Source: a virus
Strand: one strand, 5' to 3'
Length of the DNA stretch: 64,000 nucleotides
IMG/VR virus record: IMGVR_UViG_3300017763_000005
Location: 1-64,000 of that record
Position 1 is the first letter of the stretch. Each line of letters begins with the position of its first letter. Positions 3,887 to 42,788 of this stretch are shown in pieces. The position numbers and the translations under genes are program-made. Under the pieces are notes generated by a model that was not told where the DNA came from, made no database searches, and saw only the letters and a program-made list of their open reading frames with translations.

Positions 3887-4597
3887 ATGGCTTTGCCAAA
3901 ATTGAATGTTCCTAAGTATATGGTAACTTTACCGTCTACTAAGAAACAAATTAGTATGAGACCTTTTCTTGTTAAAGAAGAAAAGGTATTAATGGTTGCT
4001 TTAGAATCAAATGATATAGAGCAAATTAGTAACGCAGTAAGAAATATTATTTTAGATTGTTATGATTTAGATAATTTAGATGAGCTTACTGTATTTGATA
4101 TTGAGTACTTGTTCTTACAATTAAGAGCAAAATCTGTAGGAGAAAATATGAATCTACAGATTAAATGTGCTGAAGAAGATTGTGATAATATGACACCAAT
4201 CACTATTAATGTTGACGATATTGAGATAATAAATCAGAACCAAGATCGTGTAATAATATTAGATGAAGATAACGGTGTTGGAGTTGAGATGAAATATCCA
4301 TCATTAGAATTGATTAGCGGATTAGATTTTGAAAACGTAAGTCAAGTTGATGGTGTAATGGAACTCATCTTAAAATGTATTGATGGTATATTTGACAATG
4401 ATAATGTTTATGATTTAAAAAATGAATCAGAAGACGAAATCAAATCATTTATAGAAAGCTTAAATAATGAACAATTTAGAAAAGTTCAAAGCTTTTTTTT
4501 AGAAATACCAGCAGTATATTATAAGAGCTCATATGATTGTAAATGCGGTAAAACGCAAGAGGTTGAATTAAGAGGACTTAATAGTTTTTTTACATAA
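3887..4597 (+). CDS. gp26: Baseplate hub assembly protein gp26-like
   Basis: MALPKL..P.Y, RPFLVKEEK.L, FDIEYLFLQLRAKSVGE, C-terminal GLNSFF. Confidence 0.9.
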   Translation: MALPKLNVPKYMVTLPSTKKQISMRPFLVKEEKVLMVALESNDIEQISNAVRNIILDCYDLDNLDELTVFDIEYLFLQLRAKSVGENMNLQIKCAEEDCDNMTPITINVDDIEIINQNQDRVIILDEDNGVGVEMKYPSLELISGLDFENVSQVDGVMELILKCIDGIFDNDNVYDLKNESEDEIKSFIESLNNEQFRKVQSFFLEIPAVYYKSSYDCKCGKTQEVELRGLNSFFT

Positions 4598-19257: not shown

Positions 19258-19930
19258 TATCTACATCAAGTGTGATAATACCTTTACAAGCTGAAACGCC
19301 AGTAGGACATGTACCAGATAATTGGTTAATGTCTACATCGGCTCCAGAACCGTCAAGAGTAAAATTAATCTCTTGATAGAATCCATCTTTTTGTAAAGTA
19401 TTAATATTATTTGTACTACCAGTAATGTCAAAATTCCAAGTGACATCATCGGTTTCTACATCAACATCAAATACATTTGAACTACCTAACACTGTTAAGT
19501 CAAAGTCTAATCTTTCTGCACTAGCTAAAGAACCTTGATCCAAATCCATTGTATTTGAATCTCCAGTAATATCAACCAGAAAATTTGAACTATCTGATGA
19601 ACCAGATTGTCCTATCATCCAGTCCCAAACATTACTATCGCCATTCCACTCTAAAGTGTATGATGATGAGTCTGCTGTGACCTTACCAAAGAGTAAGTTC
19701 TCGTTACCTAACTGATCAATATTGAAAGTTAATGAAGAACCAGTAATTGGAGAAGCAGACGAAGATGAACTAAAATTATCTAGTCCAATCTTGTTACCAT
19801 ATCCTACTTGGTCAATATACAAAGTTAATGTATCACCAACTTGTGTAATATTAATTTCATTATCATCAGATGCTTGTGCAAAAGTCAAAGAACTGAAAAA
19901 TAAGCTTAGGCCTAATATATATTTTATCAT
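19205..19930 (-). CDS. Secreted curlin-repeat / beta-solenoid protein
   Basis: Signal peptide (..LTFA), repeats IDQVGYGN, IDQLGNEN, ITGDSN, VLGSSN. Confidence 0.78.
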   Translation of the reverse strand: MIKYILGLSLFFSSLTFAQASDDNEINITQVGDTLTLYIDQVGYGNKIGLDNFSSSSSASPITGSSLTFNIDQLGNENLLFGKVTADSSSYTLEWNGDSNVWDWMIGQSGSSDSSNFLVDITGDSNTMDLDQGSLASAERLDFDLTVLGSSNVFDVDVETDDVTWNFDITGSTNNINTLQKDGFYQEINFTLDGSGADVDINQLSGTCPTGVSACKGIITLDVDSENATIQINQKDTANDS

Positions 19931-20850
19931 TTTTCTTTTCCTTTTATAACCCAAAAACCTCTATCATGTCCTTGGTTGATTAATTCTAGTACTCCTGCTT
20001 CAATAGCTGAACGTACTGCATATGTCACTGACTCATTTTTACCCACTCCGTCCTCATACTCTATTAATTGCGTACCTTGTTCTATAAACCTAAATACGTC
20101 TCCTCCACTTCCGTAAGATAGGATAGTCTTCTTACTTTGGACGTTTAATAAAACCTCTCCAGTCAGAACTGAAACAGCTCTTATAGAGATTGTGACAACA
20201 TCTTTACGATATTGTCTACTTGCACCTATACCTAGAGTCCGTGCGCCTCGTCCACCAGATAAGATGTTAGTATCGTAACCAATAATACCGCCTTCTATAA
20301 TCATTCCAGCAAATAACATTGGTTGTATTCCTTGTGCTTCGTCTTCTCCCTTAGCTTTTGCTAAGTCTTGTCTAGCACTTCGTATAATTTGTCTTTCTCG
20401 TACAAGGTGATCTAATCCTTGTCGCTCTACCACTCGGAACCAAGTTCCTCCACCTGCACTCTTTAATGCATCAATTAACATAGCATCAGCACCTTGTGTT
20501 ACTGCAGTACTAAATGAAGCTATACCATCTAAAGCTTTTCTTTGTCCTGTTAGGTCTTGGAATTTATAAACTGCTACAACTGGTTTTTTATCAGCTGGTG
20601 GTATATCTAATAATTGAAAGTATGACGGCATATTAACAATTTCAGGTACATCAACACAGATGTATGGCATTGCTTTTTTAAATACTCTACCGCTTGCTTT
20701 TACCCATTCAACTACATTATGATTATATTGATCACCCCACATATCTGGATTACAGATAGTCGGATCTTCTGTGTATCTTGGTATTTGAGCACAGCTAGAG
20801 AGTAATATAATGACTGCTAAACTAGCCGCCGTCAGGTGGTGTCGTACCAT
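19927..20850 (-). CDS. csgG: Curli secretion channel lipoprotein CsgG
   Basis: Lipobox LSSC; VAVYKFQDLTGQRK, FSTAVTQG, WFRVVERQGLDHLVRERQIIR, EGGIIGYD. Confidence 0.95.
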   Translation of the reverse strand: MVRHHLTAASLAVIILLSSCAQIPRYTEDPTICNPDMWGDQYNHNVVEWVKASGRVFKKAMPYICVDVPEIVNMPSYFQLLDIPPADKKPVVAVYKFQDLTGQRKALDGIASFSTAVTQGADAMLIDALKSAGGGTWFRVVERQGLDHLVRERQIIRSARQDLAKAKGEDEAQGIQPMLFAGMIIEGGIIGYDTNILSGGRGARTLGIGASRQYRKDVVTISIRAVSVLTGEVLLNVQSKKTILSYGSGGDVFRFIEQGTQLIEYEDGVGKNESVTYAVRSAIEAGVLELINQGHDRGFWVIKGKEK

Positions 20851-21391
20851 AGTCGCTCCCGAAATATCCACTGCCGATTGGGATTTCAATTATTGTTTCC
20901 GTACCGTCGGTATCTACTATAGTCATTTTAATAAATTCTGAACCATCTGCATTGGTTATCACTTCATATGTTACTGTTGAACCTTCTAATACAAATGATC
21001 CAAACCTTACGGCATTATCATTTTGAAACATACTTTCTACAAGTTGTTTCGACATTTGAGCATATATTCTTGATTCTAAGTTACGAATGAATTTTGCTAA
21101 TGTCGTATTATCGGCTTCTCTTTGTGCTGCTTTTTCTGCTGCAGCTAATGCTTCTTCTATTGATTTCTTACGAGAGAACTCTTGATTTTCTACTGTAAGA
21201 TAATGAGATGCTGTACCTTGTCCACTAAAGGAAGGATTTTTAAACTTATGTACAATTTCTGTGGCGTTAGCAGGAGCAACAGCCATAATAGATACTATAA
21301 AGAGACTAACTAAAGTAAATACTTCAGCTTGTTCCCTTATCTTCTTTATTTTTCTTTCTTTCATTCTCTCTGTATTCCAATACCACGTCAA
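20822..21391 (-). CDS. csgF: Curli assembly protein CsgF
   Basis: Mature N-terminus TEIVHKFKNPSFSG matches the CsgF F.NP.F.G motif; adjacent to csgG. Confidence 0.88.
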   Translation of the reverse strand: MTWYWNTERMKERKIKKIREQAEVFTLVSLFIVSIMAVAPANATEIVHKFKNPSFSGQGTASHYLTVENQEFSRKKSIEEALAAAEKAAQREADNTTLAKFIRNLESRIYAQMSKQLVESMFQNDNAVRFGSFVLEGSTVTYEVITNADGSEFIKMTIVDTDGTETIIEIPIGSGYFGSDYGTTPPDGG

Positions 21392-21590
21392 CCTTTTGCT
21401 GGAGACGAATTAAGTCTTGATCGAGCATTCTCATCTGATCAATAACTCTTATTAATTGGAAATGCATTTTTTCAGTAGCTGGATCTAAATGCTCACTTAT
21501 AAAATTCCATACAAAGTAAACAAAATATCCTAATCCTACAACCATCACGGTGGGAAAGCCATAGTTGGCTATTAAATCAGCAATTTCCAT
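21324..21590 (-). CDS. Single-TM coiled-coil protein (holin-like)
   Basis: LIANYGFP + TM + coiled coil. Confidence 0.6.
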   Translation of the reverse strand: MEIADLIANYGFPTVMVVGLGYFVYFVWNFISEHLDPATEKMHFQLIRVIDQMRMLDQDLIRLQQKVDVVLEYRENERKKNKEDKGTS

Positions 21591-21593
21591 ATT

Positions 21594-21890
21594 CTAGTCT
21601 CTTCTTACGTCAAGCTTACCATCTTCGACAAAATTCTCAGCGCGAGCTATTCGGCCGATGTCAGGTCTTAATTCTAATGCGCTACTTACGAGTAAGTCAA
21701 TCTTGACCATTTCATTACTCATTGTTCTTGCTCTGTTCTCTAAACTTTCGCAAAAAATAGTTAGCGTCTTTATATTATCAACAACACCTTCAAGTATTTG
21801 TTTGATAATAGTAAATATGAAAAATCCCATTACTAATGCTCCTGCTATAGGTAATCCTACATCGGAGATAAGCTGGAAAATATCTTCCAT
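21594..21890 (-). CDS. Single-TM coiled-coil protein (holin-like), similar to its neighbour
   Basis: LISDVGLP + TM + coiled coil. Confidence 0.6.
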   Translation of the reverse strand: MEDIFQLISDVGLPIAGALVMGFFIFTIIKQILEGVVDNIKTLTIFCESLENRARTMSNEMVKIDLLVSSALELRPDIGRIARAENFVEDGKLDVRRD

Positions 21891-22186: not shown

Positions 22187-22207
22187 ATAGCTGGAATGCC
22201 AAGACAT

Positions 22208-22236
22208 AAAAAAAGGGACCTAAAAAGATCCCTTTA
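22208..22236 (-). terminator. Intrinsic terminator
   Basis: AAAGGGA..TCCCTTT hairpin with U-tract on - strand. Confidence 0.75.
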
Positions 22237-22238
22237 AT

Positions 22239-22397
22239 TTATTGTTCGCACTCTTCCGGATATTGCGTACAGTAGCGTTTCACAATTTTAATGATAACTG
22301 TTATATCATTAGTTGCTTCTCCAACTACTACTCTCTCTTTTTCAATATCCTTTTTTTGTTTAGGATATTGTGGAAAGAGAGACCAAGCTACTTTCCC
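22239..22397 (-). other. Predicted -1 programmed ribosomal frameshift cassette and 50-codon extension frame
   Basis: G_GGA_AAG slippery heptamer (22397-22391), 8-nt spacer, 9+9 bp hairpin (22382-22332), open -1 frame ending at TAA 22239. Confidence 0.75.
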
Positions 22398-22705
22398 TCA
22401 GGTTGAGGAGTTTGTAGTTTGTCAGTTTCTTCGTCGATTTTGGCAGCTGCTTTTTGAACAACTCCAGTACCAGTATTGACTGCAGTTTTACCTACATCAA
22501 CAGCTGTTTCAACAACGAATTCACCAGTGGATACTACATCCGAAGCTACAGCTGAAACAACTGTTGAAGTACCTTTTACAGCACCGTCAACAACTCCAGT
22601 TGTAAACTCCTTTGTTCCTTCTACGACGCTTCCAATTGAAGCACAATTCGTAATAAGAACTAATCCGGCGAACAGAGTAAATAAATTTTTCATTTTATTC
22701 TCCAT
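22388..22705 (-). CDS. Lipoprotein with amphipathic Val/Thr/Gly/Ala repeats
   Basis: MKNLFTLFAGLVLITNC lipoprotein signal; late promoter at 22753-22760. Confidence 0.75.
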   Translation of the reverse strand: MENKMKNLFTLFAGLVLITNCASIGSVVEGTKEFTTGVVDGAVKGTSTVVSAVASDVVSTGEFVVETAVDVGKTAVNTGTGVVQKAAAKIDEETDKLQTPQPEGK

Positions 22706-22751: not shown

Positions 22752-23003
22752 TTATTTATACAAGTACATGTCCTGTTCATCTAATGACTTAGCCATTATT
22801 ATTACTGATAACAGATCTTGTTCTCTTGCTATCTCTTCTAGTAAACACTTCGCAACTATACATTTAAATATAACAGCTGCAATTAATATTGTACCAAATA
22901 AAAGATAGAAAGCGTAAAAATAATAAGACAGAATAATCGCATGTAAACCCACAATAAGGCCTACATGCAATTTAATTGTGTGTGTATATTTACTTAGAAT
23001 CAT
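22752..23003 (-). CDS. Small membrane protein
   Basis: ORF track; hydrophobic. Confidence 0.45.
   Translation of the reverse strand: MILSKYTHTIKLHVGLIVGLHAIILSYYFYAFYLLFGTILIAAVIFKCIVAKCLLEEIAREQDLLSVIIMAKSLDEQDMYLYK
22753..22760 (-). promoter_or_regulatory. T4-type late promoter
   Basis: TATAAATA on - strand. Confidence 0.65.
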
Positions 23004-23175
23004 TCTTATGTTTTAAGAATTGTTCTATAAAATCATTTGAATGCCAATAGGAATCCAAACCAATATCAATCATTAATGCTATTAAAACAAAAGTAAGTAT
23101 GATTGACAGATACACGTTGATTGCGGCTGATATCTTCAGCCATTTGATCATATGTTTCATAATCTAAAGTGCAAC

Positions 23176-23484
23176 TTATTTAGCTGCTGTTTTTCTGGTT
23201 CTGCGTTTAGCTGGAGCTTTCTTTGCTACTGTTTTCTTAGCCGGTGCTTTTTTAGCAGCTGGCTTCTTAGCAGCAGGTTTTCTTTTAGCTGGAGCTTTTT
23301 TCTTAGATGGTGTTTTACCATCTTTATAAGCTTCATTCCTGTGCTTTGTAGCAGGATCGTCTTTTACATAACGACCCTTATCATTTCTTGCTCTAACTCC
23401 TGACGCAGGTTTGTTGGAATCATAAACAGCATATATTCCTGCTGCTAATAGAATTCCACCAATCACTATGAATGCTATATCCAT
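23176..23484 (-). CDS. Membrane-anchored protein with histone H1-like KKAPAK tail
   Basis: N-terminal TM, RARNDKGRY..DDP.T..NEAY motif, PAKK repeats; GGAGG RBS. Confidence 0.75.
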   Translation of the reverse strand: MDIAFIVIGGILLAAGIYAVYDSNKPASGVRARNDKGRYVKDDPATKHRNEAYKDGKTPSKKKAPAKRKPAAKKPAAKKAPAKKTVAKKAPAKRRTRKTAAK

Positions 23485-23588: not shown

Positions 23589-24050
23589 TTAGATCTCCTC
23601 GAGTCTCTTCATTAGCCTTTCGGCTCGGTTTGTCACTTGACTGTACCATCTTGAATCTCTGCCTTCTTTGGCAGCCTCCGTCCAATCACCACTTTGCAGC
23701 GCTGCATTGTGGTTCTTAAATTTGCTCAAGCGCGTGAGTCCCATATTAAACATCATGTTTGCTACGATTTGTTTCACTTCTTGTGGATAACCGTCCCAAC
23801 CATCATGTAGTTTTTTACAATCATCGATCACTGATTGTACGTCTTTTTCAAAACATTCGTTTACACGATCTTCTGAAACTTCAGTGCCAACGTCCTGACC
23901 GAATTCCTTGTCCTCTTTTATAACTAGATGTCCTATTCCAAATGTAGGATAGCCAAGATGATCTTTGTATATTTTATATACTACACCTTCATCTACTTTT
24001 AGTGTTTCTTTTAATTGTTCTATGTCAATGTCTTTGCTATTCCAAAACAT
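23589..24050 (-). CDS. e: Phage lysozyme (GH24, T4 e-like endolysin)
   Basis: DEG..KIYKDHLGYPTFGIGHL (E-D-T triad), NMMFNMG, DSRWYSQVTNRAERL. Confidence 0.93.
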   Translation of the reverse strand: MFWNSKDIDIEQLKETLKVDEGVVYKIYKDHLGYPTFGIGHLVIKEDKEFGQDVGTEVSEDRVNECFEKDVQSVIDDCKKLHDGWDGYPQEVKQIVANMMFNMGLTRLSKFKNHNAALQSGDWTEAAKEGRDSRWYSQVTNRAERLMKRLEEI

Positions 24051-31732: not shown

Positions 31733-32161
31733 TTATTTTAAGTTTTTTACAGCATTACCACCTATTCTACAATTGATAATACCGTTATAATACTCTTCTT
31801 TTAATAAGACTTCTCTTTCGAATTGCTCTTTTGTTTCAAGATATGCGCATTCGCCTTTCGATTTACAGAGATGTATAATCTCTCTATGGAAGAAGTCTTC
31901 TCCCATCTTTTCGACATCTTGTTGTAGGTGTTTATTAGAACCGTAGTATGTACGCCAATCCGATTCGACTTTAAGTCTTTTGCGCCTCTTTCGAGTTTTT
32001 GTAATAGGAAGAGTCTTTGCCTTCCAAAAAAATTTCTTTCCAATGTACTTTTTTGCTGTGCCTCTATTGGTTATACAATATACAAAACCGTACCACACGT
32101 CTGGAGTAAAATCTTCTGGTGGTTCGAACTTTCTTCCTTGATATATCCAATTATTCGTCAT
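31733..32161 (-). CDS. GIY-YIG family endonuclease
   Basis: YGFVYCITN...KKYIGKK, ESDWRTYYGS, E...Q, YYNG. Confidence 0.85.
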   Translation of the reverse strand: MTNNWIYQGRKFEPPEDFTPDVWYGFVYCITNRGTAKKYIGKKFFWKAKTLPITKTRKRRKRLKVESDWRTYYGSNKHLQQDVEKMGEDFFHREIIHLCKSKGECAYLETKEQFEREVLLKEEYYNGIINCRIGGNAVKNLK

Positions 32162-32288
32162 TAAAATCTAATTCGTCTAAATCATCATCAGCTGGTTCGC
32201 CGCAATGAGGACAAAAATTTATTCGTGTTTCTCTGTCATCAGGTTTTATGACTATGCGTGAATAACAATATTCGCACTCTAAAATCAC
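32151..32288 (-). CDS. Small zinc-ribbon protein (not in ORF track)
   Basis: GTG start overlapping the grx stop; MILECEYC...FCPHCGE plus acidic tail, 45 aa. Confidence 0.7.
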   Translation of the reverse strand: MILECEYCYSRIVIKPDDRETRINFCPHCGEPADDDLDELDFNDE

Positions 32289-40767: not shown

Positions 40768-40999
40768 CTTTTAATACTCTATGATATTCTCCCTTTGGTA
40801 CGTCGAATATCATGCCTGGTGATAATAAAAACGGTAAACAGTTATCAAACTGTATACACCAACCATCGCCTTCGAGTATTTCAATTTCACGATCTTCATT
40901 GTCACGATGCCAAACATATTCCTCATCATCTCGATCGATAAAGAATTCTCTCTCTATACCTCCTAAGGTATATTCTTCTGCAAATGGAAGGTTTACCAA
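40724..40999 (-). CDS. Cupin-like protein
   Basis: WHRD.EDREI, VPKGEYHRVLKG. Confidence 0.7.
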   Translation of the reverse strand: MVNLPFAEEYTLGGIEREFFIDRDDEEYVWHRDNEDREIEILEGDGWCIQFDNCLPFLLSPGMIFDVPKGEYHRVLKGVNTLKCRIISKDG

Positions 41000-41364
41000 A
41001 AGTAATTCCCTCCTCCCTTTAAACCTAATTCTTTAGCATACTTAGGTAATCTACATGCCCAATAACCAGCTGACAATTTATCAGTTTTAGTATCACAGTT
41101 ATGTCTTGAAGCAAAGTTTCGAGCAGCATCACGATCATTTATCTTTGATGTTAAACCACCTTTTGCATCTCCAAAGTTTATCTTCTTTACATTACCAGTT
41201 TGTGGATTTTTTACATATACCACATACTTGCTTGGACCAGCTGATCTTTTTGGTTTATTAAGCTCCGGAGCTTCTATCAATGGTCTTTCTAATGGAACAG
41301 TTGTTCCTTCATATAAACCAAAGTTTTTATTTATATGTTCTTTGAAATTATCCACCGAACTCAT
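40993..41364 (-). CDS. Conserved phage hypothetical protein
   Basis: YVKNP.TGNVKKINFG, FASRHNC...DKLSAGYWAC. Confidence 0.75.
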   Translation of the reverse strand: MSSVDNFKEHINKNFGLYEGTTVPLERPLIEAPELNKPKRSAGPSKYVVYVKNPQTGNVKKINFGDAKGGLTSKINDRDAARNFASRHNCDTKTDKLSAGYWACRLPKYAKELGLKGGGNYFW

Positions 41365-41722
41365 GCCCCGCTACTCTTTTCATTTGTTTTTTATATTCAG
41401 CAAAGTCAGGTTTAGATTTATATAGCTTTATAGAAATCTCGTTTCTTTCTTTACCTTTAATACGCCAGTTATAACCTTGTTCTTTATGTTCAGGATCTGT
41501 GGTTTTTACAACTCTTCTTTTGTAACCATCTTCCCAAGTTTCGCCTTTGTATTTACCTTCGCCTTCTTCTACGTTTTCTCCTTTAGCTCTGTCCATAGCT
41601 GCTTGAGTAGGAGCTCCTTTTTCTCCTTTTTTACGCATTGGCTTTCCACTCTTTCTTTTATTATGGATATTGGCCCAAAGACCAGGACCCTTTTCAGAAA
41701 GAAATGATTTAAATGATATCAT
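41348..41722 (-). CDS. Putative internal head protein
   Basis: MISFKSFLSE; PGLWANIH.KR...MRKKGEKGAPT. Confidence 0.65.
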   Translation of the reverse strand: MISFKSFLSEKGPGLWANIHNKRKSGKPMRKKGEKGAPTQAAMDRAKGENVEEGEGKYKGETWEDGYKRRVVKTTDPEHKEQGYNWRIKGKERNEISIKLYKSKPDFAEYKKQMKRVAGHEFGG

Positions 41723-42012
41723 CTTTTTAAATCCATTCTAAACGATTTGCCCTTTTGTTGTTTATCTTTAGTGACTTTAAACTTAGCAATTCTAGCTATT
41801 ATATTAGTTAATTCTGTTTTGCCTTTTTTTAAATCTTTTTCTAAGACCTTTTTAACTTCCTTCCATATAGAATCTAGTATATCACTATCACTAGCTACAT
41901 ATGGTGCTTCATCTAATTCATCTGCTTTAATACCGTCGCCATCTGTATCAATTTCTTTTTCGGCGTCAGTATAAGACTTAAATTTTTGTCTAGCTTGTTT
42001 AAAGGTTTTCAT
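41719..42012 (-). CDS. Putative internal head protein
   Basis: MKTFKQAR; coupled ORF. Confidence 0.6.
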   Translation of the reverse strand: MKTFKQARQKFKSYTDAEKEIDTDGDGIKADELDEAPYVASDSDILDSIWKEVKKVLEKDLKKGKTELTNIIARIAKFKVTKDKQQKGKSFRMDLKR

Positions 42013-42788
42013 TAGTATTTTGATCCTGCGCTTAAGTCGACTTTCATTCTTCTACCTGGTCGTATGTTTCCAGATTTTCTTTTGATTGCTTCATCCATAT
42101 CTACATCGAAGTTGATATGTGTAATATCATAACCTTGACCTTTTTTCTTAGCAGTTAACCATCTACCATTAAGTGAATCCATTGCAACTTTGTTTAAATC
42201 AGTCTTAGGAAACTTCTTACTCTTTGTAGACCCAGGGATAAAATATAAAACACCAAGATCATCGTATAACTCATCATCACCAAATGGCATAAGCTTTAAA
42301 TATTTGTCTACTTCCTTTTCAGTAGTAGCAAAGTATGGCTTTGATACAAGGTCCATTAATTTTTGAAGTTTAGTTTTAGTATCTGGTATATCCCATGTAC
42401 CTTCTTTAACTTTTTGCACTGATTCTGGTAAAGACATCATAAACTTACCGATATTTTTATTAGGACCTGATACACTAAGTTCAGTACCAGTTTTAGTTTT
42501 TTTACTTACAACTTTTACACCAGCCTTTTGAGCAAGCTTAACTGCAGTCTTATGACTATCGTCGTCCATATCTACTAATTTAACGGTCTCTTCGTTTACT
42601 GATTCGTTTGCTTGTCTTAAAGCATCTTTAACCATAGGATCATTTGCTAATCCTTTTTTCATTGCTTCTATTTTTTTATGAGCTCCAGTCATATTACCAC
42701 CCATATCAATTGCAATCTTTACAGCAGCTGCAACAAGAGATGAAGGGAATTTACTTCTGTATTTTTCTCTTAGTTCTTTAAATTTCAT
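42012..42788 (-). CDS. Putative internal head protein
   Basis: MKFKELRE; internal xxE sites (ANE, VNE, VKE, MDE). Confidence 0.6.
   Translation of the reverse strand: MKFKELREKYRSKFPSSLVAAAVKIAIDMGGNMTGAHKKIEAMKKGLANDPMVKDALRQANESVNEETVKLVDMDDDSHKTAVKLAQKAGVKVVSKKTKTGTELSVSGPNKNIGKFMMSLPESVQKVKEGTWDIPDTKTKLQKLMDLVSKPYFATTEKEVDKYLKLMPFGDDELYDDLGVLYFIPGSTKSKKFPKTDLNKVAMDSLNGRWLTAKKKGQGYDITHINFDVDMDEAIKRKSGNIRPGRRMKVDLSAGSKY

What the first reader, a model, noticed from the sequence alone, without database searches (positions are those of the whole stretch)
22239..22705. Textbook -1 ribosomal frameshift in a late lipoprotein gene
Seen: the lipoprotein ends GAG GGA AAG TAG, which is the slippery heptamer G_GGA_AAG (same as lambda G/GT). 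An 8-nt spacer follows, then a hairpin TCTCTCTTT-cca-CAATATCCT / AGGATATTG-aa-AAAGAGAGA. The -1 frame stays open for 50 codons (VAWSLFPQYPKQKKDIEKERVVVGEATNDITVIIKIVKRYCTQYPEECEQ), has no ATG of its own, and stops just before the terminator. Inference: two lipoprotein isoforms at a fixed ratio, the long one with a Cys-x6-Cys tail. Phage frameshifts are mostly known from tail chaperones and capsid/tail proteins, so an envelope lipoprotein is unusual.
Basis: seen in the sequence. Interest (0 to 1): 0.78.

Follow-up and report, generated by a model that had tools for sequence, protein, structure and literature searches.

The report
Frameshift-extended lipoprotein of marine phages
A small lipoprotein gene of an uncultured marine T4-like phage ends in a ribosome slip site and RNA hairpin that every tail-bearing relative keeps, so it very probably makes a short protein and a 50-residue-longer one with a two-cysteine tail: a classical recoding mechanism in a kind of gene where I found no published case.

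Summary
On the minus strand, the lipoprotein ORF 22705..22388 ends with an in-phase G_GGA_AAG (22397..22391) directly before TAG. A strong hairpin starts 8 nt later. The -1 frame opens exactly at the heptamer and runs 52 codons to TAA (22241..22239), just before a terminator.

One sequence alone would be weak evidence, since the window has 107 in-phase slippery heptamers. The comparative evidence is strong. Among 103 distinct homologous gene ends:
- 87 have an in-phase A_AAA_AAG or G_GGA_AAG within one codon of the stop, plus a -1 tail ending in an invariant Y/F-C-x3-P-x2-C motif.
- 13 have neither heptamer nor tail.
- None has one without the other.
- 3 carry the tail in the +1/-2 frame, which is unexplained.

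The tail frame is under purifying selection (pN/pS 0.40, against 0.92 and 1.49 in the other frames). Hairpins differ in sequence between clades but persist, with compensatory changes. RNA-library contigs show no indel at the site.

Best reading: programmed -1 ribosomal frameshifting that yields two isoforms (confidence about 0.85; no protein evidence). The function of the tail is unknown.

I found no published report. This scan has already reached the same reading for this family on other genomes. It is a new member of a known kind.

The parts
22753..22760 (-). T4-type late-promoter-like motif TATAAATA, about 50-60 nt upstream of the start codons
   Evidence: The motif occurs 20 times in the window against 12 expected. 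Its function here was not tested.
22388..22705 (-). 0-frame lipoprotein ORF, including the TAG stop. It is 105 aa from the ATG at 22705. The likelier start is the ATG at 22693 (101 aa), which has GGAG 22703..22700 six nt upstream. The lipobox Cys codon is 22645..22643.
   Evidence: The protein has 197 homologues, all from marine viral or metagenome sources. There is no Pfam hit. AlphaFold2 gives a low-confidence two-helix model, pLDDT 52.
22391..22397 (-). Slippery heptamer G_GGA_AAG in X_XXY_YYZ phase. The 0-frame stop TAG follows directly at 22390..22388, and a -1-frame TGA lies directly 5'.
   Evidence: An in-phase heptamer is kept in all 87 distinct -1-tail-bearing relatives and is absent in all 13 tail-less ones.
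22332..22382 (-). 3' stimulatory hairpin, 8 nt after the heptamer. It has two 9-bp stems (22382..22374 with 22340..22332, and 22370..22362 with 22351..22343) and a 10-nt A-rich loop.
   Evidence: -24.7 kcal/mol, z = -4.1; the hairpin is kept in all five sequence variants of this clade (-20.6 to -28.4 kcal/mol); in-frame indels in L005/L007 close the internal loop.
22239..22397 (-). -1 frame extension of 52 codons plus TAA. The trans-frame product is the full 0-frame protein plus 50 new residues: 151 or 155 aa as precursor, about 135 aa mature. The conserved C-terminal module is a helix plus Y-C-x3-P-x2-C, with Cys codons at 22271..22269 and 22250..22248.
   Evidence: Y, C, P and C invariant; pN/pS 0.40 against 0.92 and 1.49; helix at residues 16-45, with pLDDT about 90 over residues 31-50.
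22205..22235 (-). Intrinsic terminator-like hairpin and T-run that ends the transcription unit just after the -1 ORF

Best explanation
The gene uses programmed -1 ribosomal frameshifting.

Mechanism (inferred from the established tandem-slippage model):
- Ribosomes decoding GGA-AAG at the last two sense codons meet the hairpin 8 nt downstream.
- A fraction of them slip back one base, so the tRNAs re-pair on GGG-AAA.
- Those ribosomes then read 50 further codons in the -1 frame.
- The rest terminate at the adjacent TAG.

The result is two forms of one exported, N-terminally lipid-anchored protein:
- a short form, about 85 mature residues, predicted helical or disordered, built of 11-residue repeats;
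- a long form, about 135 mature residues, that adds a variable linker and a conserved amphipathic helix closed by a two-cysteine loop.

What is shown: the sequence anatomy and its conservation, its co-occurrence with the tail, and selection on the tail frame.

What is inferred:
- that slippage happens, and at what ratio;
- that the cysteines form a periplasmic disulfide;
- that the tail is a partner-binding or oligomerisation module. On this reading, frameshift efficiency would set how many copies of the envelope protein carry it.

The phage is an uncultured marine T4-like myovirus carrying the CsgG/CsgF module described for pelagimyophages. The biological role of the lipoprotein is unknown. 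My guess, at low confidence, is an envelope or lysis-related role.
For: (1) Anatomy in the window: an in-phase G_GGA_AAG, a stop directly 3', a -1 frame closed just 5' and open for 52 codons, a hairpin at 8 nt (z -4.1 to -6.2), then a terminator.

(2) Co-occurrence across 103 distinct homologous gene ends: heptamer plus -1 tail 87, neither 13, either alone 0. For example, L346 ends ...P-K-Q-D with CCT AAA CAG GAC, no tail and a terminator. Its sister L066 ends ...P-K-K-D with CCA AAA AAG GAC and has a tail.

(3) The heptamer switches between A_AAA_AAG and G_GGA_AAG in different clades but is always a canonical X_XXA_AAG. Synonymous codons match it: Glu is GAG before GGA-AAG and GAA before AAA-AAG, and Pro is always CCA. 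Window codon usage would favour AAA over AAG 73:27 and GAA over GAG 79:21.

(4) The tail frame is coding. pN/pS is 0.40 against 0.92 and 1.49 in the other two frames, which hold 61 and 83 stops. At least seven different linker lengths all keep the Cys motif in the -1 frame. Y, C, P and C are invariant.

(5) There is no conserved start codon. In most clades the -1 frame is closed 0-13 codons upstream of the heptamer.

(6) Hairpins 5-8 nt after the heptamer differ in sequence between clades but persist. Within one subclade there is an 11-bp consensus stem with two compensatory pairs. The window-clade stem is kept in all variants.

(7) Contigs from four RNA-library runs (three studies) cover the heptamer without any inserted or deleted base. 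One spans the stop and most of the tail.

(8) No in-frame fused homologue was found in 5.8 billion proteins.
Against: - No protein, reporter or ribosome-profiling evidence exists, and the host is unknown.
- On a poorly resolved tree of this short protein, the perfect heptamer/tail association rests on only 3 well-supported (5 in all) independent contrasts. The sign test cannot reach significance.
- In two clades (endings ...PEKK and ...EEPKK) the predicted downstream structure is weak or sits about 20 nt away, with z -1 to -3.
- Three relatives (L205, L220, L221) have the tail in the +1/-2 frame, with no heptamer and with upstream ATGs in that frame. The tail may therefore be expressible another way.
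- Thirteen tail-less relatives show that the tail is dispensable for the core protein.
- The window clade's lipobox has Asn at -1, which is unusual.
Confidence: 0.85

Rival explanations
1. The tail is a separate small gene. It would be translated on its own by non-canonical initiation, or by termination-reinitiation after the lipoprotein stop, and not fused to the lipoprotein.
For: In L205, L220 and L221 the tail lies in the +1 frame, which is open far upstream and contains ATG codons. Gene callers have called 49-54-aa ORFs inside the tail of one clade, starting from internal ATG, GTG or TTG codons.
Against: - No start codon is conserved. The window tail has no ATG, and its only in-frame GTG would give 13 residues.
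- The internal Met of some clades is Leu, Ile or Val in others.
- The -1 frame opens at the heptamer in most clades.
- This reading does not explain the perfect coupling of heptamer and tail, the fixation of synonymous codons, or the hairpin.
- A free peptide would lack a signal sequence although it has two invariant cysteines.
Confidence: 0.06
2. Transcriptional slippage by RNA polymerase on the A-run puts the tail in frame in a fraction of mRNAs, rather than ribosomal slippage.
For: Most relatives have runs of 6-7 A at the site. A single protein record (P0124) reads as an in-frame fusion that lacks one A.
Against: - The window clade and at least two other clades use G_GGA_AAG, with only three A's, yet keep the same architecture.
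- What is conserved is the X_XXY_YYZ phase, not the run length.
- RNA-library contigs of three studies show no indel at 22391..22397, although contigs cannot exclude rare variants.
- P0124 changes frame a second time inside the Cys motif, as an error-prone assembly would.
Confidence: 0.04
3. There is no recoding. The open -1 frame is a by-product, and the hairpin is an mRNA-stability or attenuation element in a long 3' UTR.
For: The window is AT-rich and has many chance slippery heptamers (107 in phase). A 50-codon open frame alone has a few per cent probability by chance.
Against: - There is purifying selection specific to the -1 frame.
- The Y-C-x3-P-x2-C motif is invariant down to about 35-45% identity of the core protein.
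- Indels come in multiples of three.
- Tail-less relatives end in a terminator directly after the stop.
Confidence: 0.03

Closest known systems
Phage lambda G/GT tail assembly chaperone -1 frameshift and its analogues in tailed phages (Levin et al. 1993; Xu, Hendrix & Duda 2004; cited from my own knowledge)
   Same: The heptamer G_GGA_AAG is identical. Both are phage genes, apparently late-expressed in this case. One gene yields a short and a C-terminally extended form at a ratio set by translation. The slip site is conserved across diverged relatives.
   Different: - The protein family is unrelated: no Pfam or PHROG match.
- The gene is not between tail tube and tape-measure genes.
- The product has a signal peptide and lipobox and is presumably exported.
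- The slip occurs on the last two sense codons, with the stop adjacent.
- A strong 3' hairpin is present and conserved.
E. coli dnaX tau/gamma -1 frameshift (A_AAA_AAG plus a 3' stem-loop and a 5' Shine-Dalgarno-like element; cited from my own knowledge)
   Same: Most relatives use the same heptamer A_AAA_AAG, with a stem-loop 5-7 nt downstream. Both depend on Lys-tRNA slipping from AAG to AAA.
   Different: - In dnaX the shifted ribosome terminates almost at once, so the frameshift product is the shorter one. Here it is the longer one.
- No conserved upstream Shine-Dalgarno-like element is seen.
- dnaX is a cellular replication gene, whereas this is a phage envelope protein.
Phage T7 gene 10A/10B (a -1 frameshift near the end of the capsid gene adds about 50 residues; cited from my own knowledge)
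   Same: The frameshift is at the extreme 3' end of a late phage gene and adds a C-terminal extension of about 50 residues to a minority of molecules.
   Different: The heptamer differs, and T7 gene 10 encodes a structural capsid protein, not an exported lipoprotein.
Phage spanin lipoproteins (Rz1-type o-spanins, T1 gp11-type u-spanins)
   Same: This is a small phage-encoded lipoprotein with conserved cysteines and an unusual coding architecture. In this window it lies near a T4-lysozyme-like gene and small membrane-protein genes.
   Different: - Rz1 is an embedded gene with its own start; it is not recoded.
- The protein here is not proline-rich and has no C-terminal transmembrane segment.
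- No adjacent Rz-like coiled-coil partner is evident.
- In other clades the gene sits beside DNA polymerase or curlin-like and cyclase genes instead.

Membership tests
Canonical bacterial-type programmed -1 ribosomal frameshift site | X_XXY_YYZ slippery heptamer in the 0-frame phase | tested here: met
   G_GGA_AAG at 22397..22391 is in phase. Relatives have A_AAA_AAG or G_GGA_AAG, always in phase.
Canonical bacterial-type programmed -1 ribosomal frameshift site | -1 frame ORF that continues from the site, lacks its own initiation signal and is under protein-level selection | tested here: met
   The frame is open for 52 codons from the heptamer, with TGA just 5' and no ATG. pN/pS is 0.40 against 0.92 and 1.49 in the control frames. 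The Cys motif is invariant.
Canonical bacterial-type programmed -1 ribosomal frameshift site | 3' stimulatory RNA structure about 5-9 nt downstream | tested here: met
   The hairpin starts 8 nt downstream: -24.7 kcal/mol, z -4.1. It is kept in clade variants. Other clades have different hairpins at 5-7 nt, with compensatory pairs. The structure is weak or distant in two clades.
Canonical bacterial-type programmed -1 ribosomal frameshift site | Slip site and trans-frame ORF gained and lost together in evolution | tested here: met
   Counts are 87 both, 13 neither, 0 either alone, plus 3 +1/-2 exceptions. Only 3-5 independent contrasts are seen on the tree.
Canonical bacterial-type programmed -1 ribosomal frameshift site | Trans-frame protein detected; frameshift efficiency measured | not testable with these tools
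   No proteomic or reporter data are available. RNA contigs only show that the mRNA or DNA is unedited at the site.
Bacterial lipoprotein (Lgt/LspA substrate) | N-terminal signal peptide ending in a lipobox with an invariant Cys | tested here: inconclusive
   The Cys is invariant in 64 aligned homologues. Relatives have canonical-looking boxes such as A-A-S-C, F-V-G-C and A-Q-G-C. The window clade has I-T-N-C, with an unusual Asn at -1. No dedicated lipoprotein predictor was available.
Lambda gpG/gpGT tail assembly chaperone family | Sequence or profile similarity to gpG/gpGT, and a position between the tail tube and tape-measure genes | tested here: not met
   There are no Pfam or PHROG hits to chaperone families. 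The neighbours are a lysozyme-like gene, small membrane proteins and CsgF/CsgG.
Spanins (o-spanin / u-spanin) | Outer-membrane lipoprotein paired with an adjacent or embedding i-spanin gene, or carrying a C-terminal transmembrane domain | tested here: not met
   Neither isoform has a C-terminal hydrophobic segment. No Rz-like neighbour is conserved; the conserved neighbours are a 56-aa single-pass and a roughly 80-120-aa two-pass membrane protein.

The most novel reading that the evidence does not exclude
The frameshift-only tail, a helix stapled by a two-cysteine loop, may be a docking module. It would tie a set fraction of the lipid-anchored protein to a partner in the envelope. Candidates are the co-conserved 56-aa inner-membrane protein or the phage CsgG/CsgF pore. 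Translational slippage would then set the stoichiometry of a phage-built trans-envelope complex involved in lysis timing or secretion in streamlined marine hosts.

The family may also have switched at least once from -1 to -2/+1 recoding (L205, L220, L221). That would make it a natural system for studying how recoding signals evolve.
Probability: 0.15. Interest if true: 0.8.

Novelty: new member of a known kind. Interest (0 to 1): 0.58.

Why it matters
Conserved programmed frameshifts in bacteria and their viruses are few. The known cases are dnaX, insertion sequences, tail chaperones, some capsid genes, copA and csoS2. In phages nearly all concern virion assembly. This case is well supported and found across many marine samples, and it sits in a small exported lipoprotein of abundant uncultured marine T4-like phages.

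- It shows that annotation pipelines miss a conserved protein domain that exists only in the shifted frame. I found no in-frame copy in 5.8 billion predicted proteins.
- It offers a compact natural series for studying how slip sites and stimulators co-evolve: two heptamers, many different hairpins, tail-less relatives and a +1/-2 variant.
- It gives a new handle on the unexplained envelope gene cluster (CsgG/CsgF, curlin-like and cyclase genes) of pelagimyophage-like phages.

Tried and rejected
- Cultured phages: blastn and tblastn of the region, of two family members and of the 56-aa neighbour against 50,697 phage records gave nothing usable. The family is known only from uncultured marine contigs.
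DNA for database proteins had to be obtained through the search for related loci instead.
- Pfam, PHROG and the ESM Atlas gave no informative family for the lipoprotein or the tail. The only lead was a weak Atlas hit to DUF6726 (score 0.86).
- The AlphaFold2 model of the lipoprotein has low confidence (pLDDT 52), so no fold search was run. The tail model is a single helix and is also unsuitable for a fold search.
- Complex prediction of the tail with the co-conserved 56-aa membrane protein returned 'no answer'. This is not evidence either way.
- An alifold run on a MAFFT alignment of all ...KKD-type sequences failed, because indels misaligned the non-homologous hairpins. A gap-free subclade alignment worked.
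- A search for more members of the +1/-2 clade with a DNA pattern found only the same three contigs.
- Upstream Shine-Dalgarno-like stimulator: none is conserved. The GAGG in the window overlaps the heptamer itself, too close for the dnaX-type arrangement.
- Sequencing error or pseudogene: rejected. The same arrangement occurs on very many independent contigs, and the window's sequence is held in about 17 studies.
- There are no tRNA genes in the window. Nothing can be said about the Lys-tRNA supply.

Full report
**What is in the window**

The finding lies on the minus strand. ORF 22705..22388 (105 aa) begins with a hydrophobic signal-like segment that ends in Cys (codon 22645..22643). An inner ATG at 22693 has GGAG six bases upstream and is the likelier start, which would make the precursor 101 aa.

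The 0-frame ends CCT GAG GGA AAG TAG. This places G_GGA_AAG (22397..22391) in exact X_XXY_YYZ phase, with the stop directly 3'. In the -1 frame a TGA lies directly 5' of the heptamer. That frame then stays open for 52 codons, to TAA at 22241..22239.

Eight bases after the heptamer a bipartite hairpin begins. It has two 9-bp stems (22382..22374 with 22340..22332, and 22370..22362 with 22351..22343). It folds at -24.7 kcal/mol against -13.3 for shuffles, z = -4.1, and z = -6.2 on a 72-nt window. A terminator-like hairpin and T-run (22235..22212) follow the -1 stop. A TATAAATA motif sits at 22760..22753.

On its own it is only suggestive. This AT-rich window has 107 in-phase slippery heptamers in about 19,700 codons, though only this one in-phase G_GGA_AAG.

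**What the genome is**

The window is part of a 97.6-kb IMG/VR viral contig estimated to be 54% complete.
- It encodes a T4-type DNA polymerase, ribonucleotide reductase and a DnaB-like helicase.
- The polymerase is at most 52% identical to any cultured phage. The next best matches are T4-like cyanophages at about 47%.
- Just downstream of the finding lie CsgF and CsgG homologues (Pfam E = 1.7e-17 and 1.2e-52). This module has been described in pelagimyophages and the OM43 phage Melnitz (PMC7029224, PMC9004378). Neither paper mentions this lipoprotein or a frameshift.

**Comparative test**

I collected homologous loci in several ways:
- viral contigs, searched with the protein, with two profiles and with a tail profile;
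- one metagenome scan;
- 197 database homologues.

A tblastn-anchored script over all 357 loci gave 103 distinct gene-end sequences, including the window:

| Heptamer in phase (within one codon of the stop) | Conserved tail | Count |
|---|---|---|
| yes (A_AAA_AAG or G_GGA_AAG) | yes, in -1 frame | 87 |
| no | none | 13 |
| no | yes, in +1/-2 frame | 3 |
| yes | none | 0 |
| no | yes, in -1 frame | 0 |

The tail-less relatives typically end in a terminator right after the stop.

One pair is telling. L346 ends ...P-K-Q-D (CCT AAA CAG GAC TGA, then a terminator). Its sister L066 ends ...P-K-K-D (CCA AAA AAG GAC TAA) and has a tail.

The heptamer type differs between clades, and G_GGA_AAG occurs in at least three places on the tree. 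The synonymous codons always fit the heptamer:
- Glu is GAG before GGA-AAG but GAA before AAA-AAG.
- Pro is always CCA.
- Lys-Lys is always AAA-AAG.

The window's own codon usage would favour AAA over AAG 73:27 and GAA over GAG 79:21.

**The tail is coding**

- An ungapped 23-codon block around the Cys motif, in 33 distinct sequences, gives pN/pS 0.40 in the tail frame. The other two frames give 0.92 and 1.49 and contain 61 and 83 stops.
- Y, C, P and C are invariant in a 24-sequence alignment. More distant clades keep the motif, with F in place of Y once.
- At least seven different linker lengths between heptamer and motif all preserve the -1 frame.
- Within the window clade, L005/L007 carry a 3-nt insertion and a 3-nt deletion. 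These keep the frame and also close the hairpin's internal loop, giving -28.4 kcal/mol.
- No start codon is conserved in the tail.
- AlphaFold2 models tail residues 16-45 as a helix, with pLDDT about 90 over residues 31-50.

**RNA structure**

Nearly every clade has a hairpin starting 5-8 nt after the heptamer, but the sequences are unrelated between clades. In a gap-free subclade alignment the consensus is an 11-bp stem 6 nt after the heptamer, with two pairs showing compensatory changes.

Two clades are weaker:
- The ...PEKK clade has only a modest long-range structure that includes the stop codon (z about -2).
- The ...EEPKK clade has AU-rich hairpins about 20 nt downstream (z -1 to -3).

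**Transcripts**

The window's sequence is held in about 17 studies of seawater and viral metagenomes and in six RNA runs. Contigs of four RNA-library runs (three studies) cover 22391..22397 with no inserted or deleted base. One contig spans 22253..22467, which covers the stop and most of the tail. Contigs cannot exclude rare variants or DNA carry-over, so this argues only weakly against transcriptional slippage. The stronger argument is that three clades use G_GGA_AAG, which has no homopolymer run.

**Fused or free forms**

- No homologue among 197 has a C-terminal in-frame tail. The longer ones are N-terminal extensions.
- A tail-profile search of longer proteins found nothing, which is weak evidence.
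- The tail-profile search of short proteins found contig-edge fragments. It also found 49-54-aa ORFs that gene callers started at internal codons of the tail in a divergent clade. The DNA of that clade shows the same A_AAA_AAG-plus-stop arrangement.
- One record (P0124) reads as an in-frame fusion lacking one A. It shifts frame again inside the Cys motif, as an indel-prone assembly would.

**Exceptions and limits**

L205, L220 and L221 end GAA GAA AAG AAG TAR, with the conserved tail in the +1 (equivalently -2) frame, no heptamer, and ATG codons upstream in that frame. Either these use a -2/+1 event or the tail has become a separate overlapping gene there. I could not decide between these.

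The tree of this short protein is poorly resolved. Only 3 well-supported (5 in all) independent contrasts underlie the heptamer/tail association.

There is no protein-level evidence.

**Function**

The core protein has no family assignment. It is predicted as two long helices at low confidence, and an 11-residue indel between clades fits an 11-mer repeat.

Across clades the gene travels with a highly conserved 56-aa single-pass membrane protein (window 22990..23160) and a two-pass membrane protein. It often sits beside curlin-like, cyclase or CsgF/G genes. In this window it also lies near a T4-lysozyme-like gene. I therefore guess an envelope or lysis-related role, with the tail as a binding or oligomerisation module. 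This is inference only.

**Comparison and novelty**

Mechanistically this is a classical -1 programmed frameshift. It has the lambda G/GT heptamer in this clade, the dnaX heptamer plus stem-loop in most relatives, and a T7 gene-10-like C-terminal extension.

It is not a member of those protein families. No paper in the searchable library links frameshifting to a phage lipoprotein.

This scan has already reported the same family, with the same reading, on at least six other genomes. My tests here were run independently and agree. They add four things:
- the tail-less relatives as a negative control;
- the pN/pS test;
- the RNA-contig check;
- the +1/-2 variant.

**Verdict**

This is a new member of a known kind.

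Noticed in passing
window 19927..21391 (-): CsgG (19927..20889) and CsgF (20822..21391) homologues. The Pfam matches are E = 1.2e-52 and 1.7e-17. This is the partial curli/type VIII secretion module already described in pelagimyophages and phage Melnitz (PMC7029224, PMC9004378).
   Followed up: partly
window 22990..23160 (-) and 22752..23003 (-): A 56-aa single-pass membrane protein and an 83-aa two-pass membrane protein lie directly upstream of the lipoprotein. The 56-aa protein stays 56-93% identical in clades where the lipoprotein is only 35-50% identical (44% in the most divergent clade, L048), and the three genes travel together. Their function is unknown. They may be partners of the lipoprotein.
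   Followed up: partly
L205, L220, L221 (viral contigs 3300012936_003521, 3300004369_000172, 3300006919_007525): In this variant the lipoprotein ends GAA GAA AAG AAG TAR and the conserved Cys tail lies in the +1/-2 frame without a canonical heptamer. The three contigs fall in two different places on the protein tree but share a near-identical junction, which suggests recombination of the 3' end.
   Followed up: partly
L206:1653-2117 (+) and homologues in L197, L208, L210, L215: In one clade the gene after the frameshift tail encodes a secreted protein of about 154 aa. It carries the same Y-C-x-N-N-P-x-E-C motif near its N-terminus (weak Pfam DUF5658, E = 0.0012). The two-cysteine module may therefore be shared between neighbouring exported proteins.
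   Followed up: partly
window 21594..21890 (-) and 21324..21590 (-): Two paralogous small proteins with an N-terminal transmembrane segment (both phrog_18771, with a weak holin-family hit) lie between the 84-aa gene that follows the lipoprotein and CsgF.
   Followed up: no
window 23176..23484 (-) and 23589..24050 (-): A 102-aa protein has an N-terminal transmembrane segment and a Lys/Ala/Pro-rich, histone-H1-like tail (weak Pfam HC2 hit). It sits next to a gene that looks like T4 lysozyme by sequence.
   Followed up: no
window 31736..32164 (-), 41722..42015 (-), 40996..41367 (-), 3887..4597 (+): Other in-phase slippery heptamers lie 3-9 codons before a stop, with long open -1 frames (161, 127, 99 and 68 codons). 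Most are probably just overlaps with the next gene.
   Followed up: no
window 22346: In an oligo-dT RNA library (run X10) the contig breaks at 22346 with a loose run of T. This is most simply explained by internal priming on the A-rich loop of the frameshift hairpin, not by a real RNA end.
   Followed up: no
P0093 and P0124 (database proteins): P0093 equals the window protein for 71 residues and then diverges; it sits on a 692-nt contig and is probably a chimeric assembly. P0124 is an apparent in-frame lipoprotein-tail fusion with a second frame change; it is probably an indel-prone assembly.
   Followed up: partly
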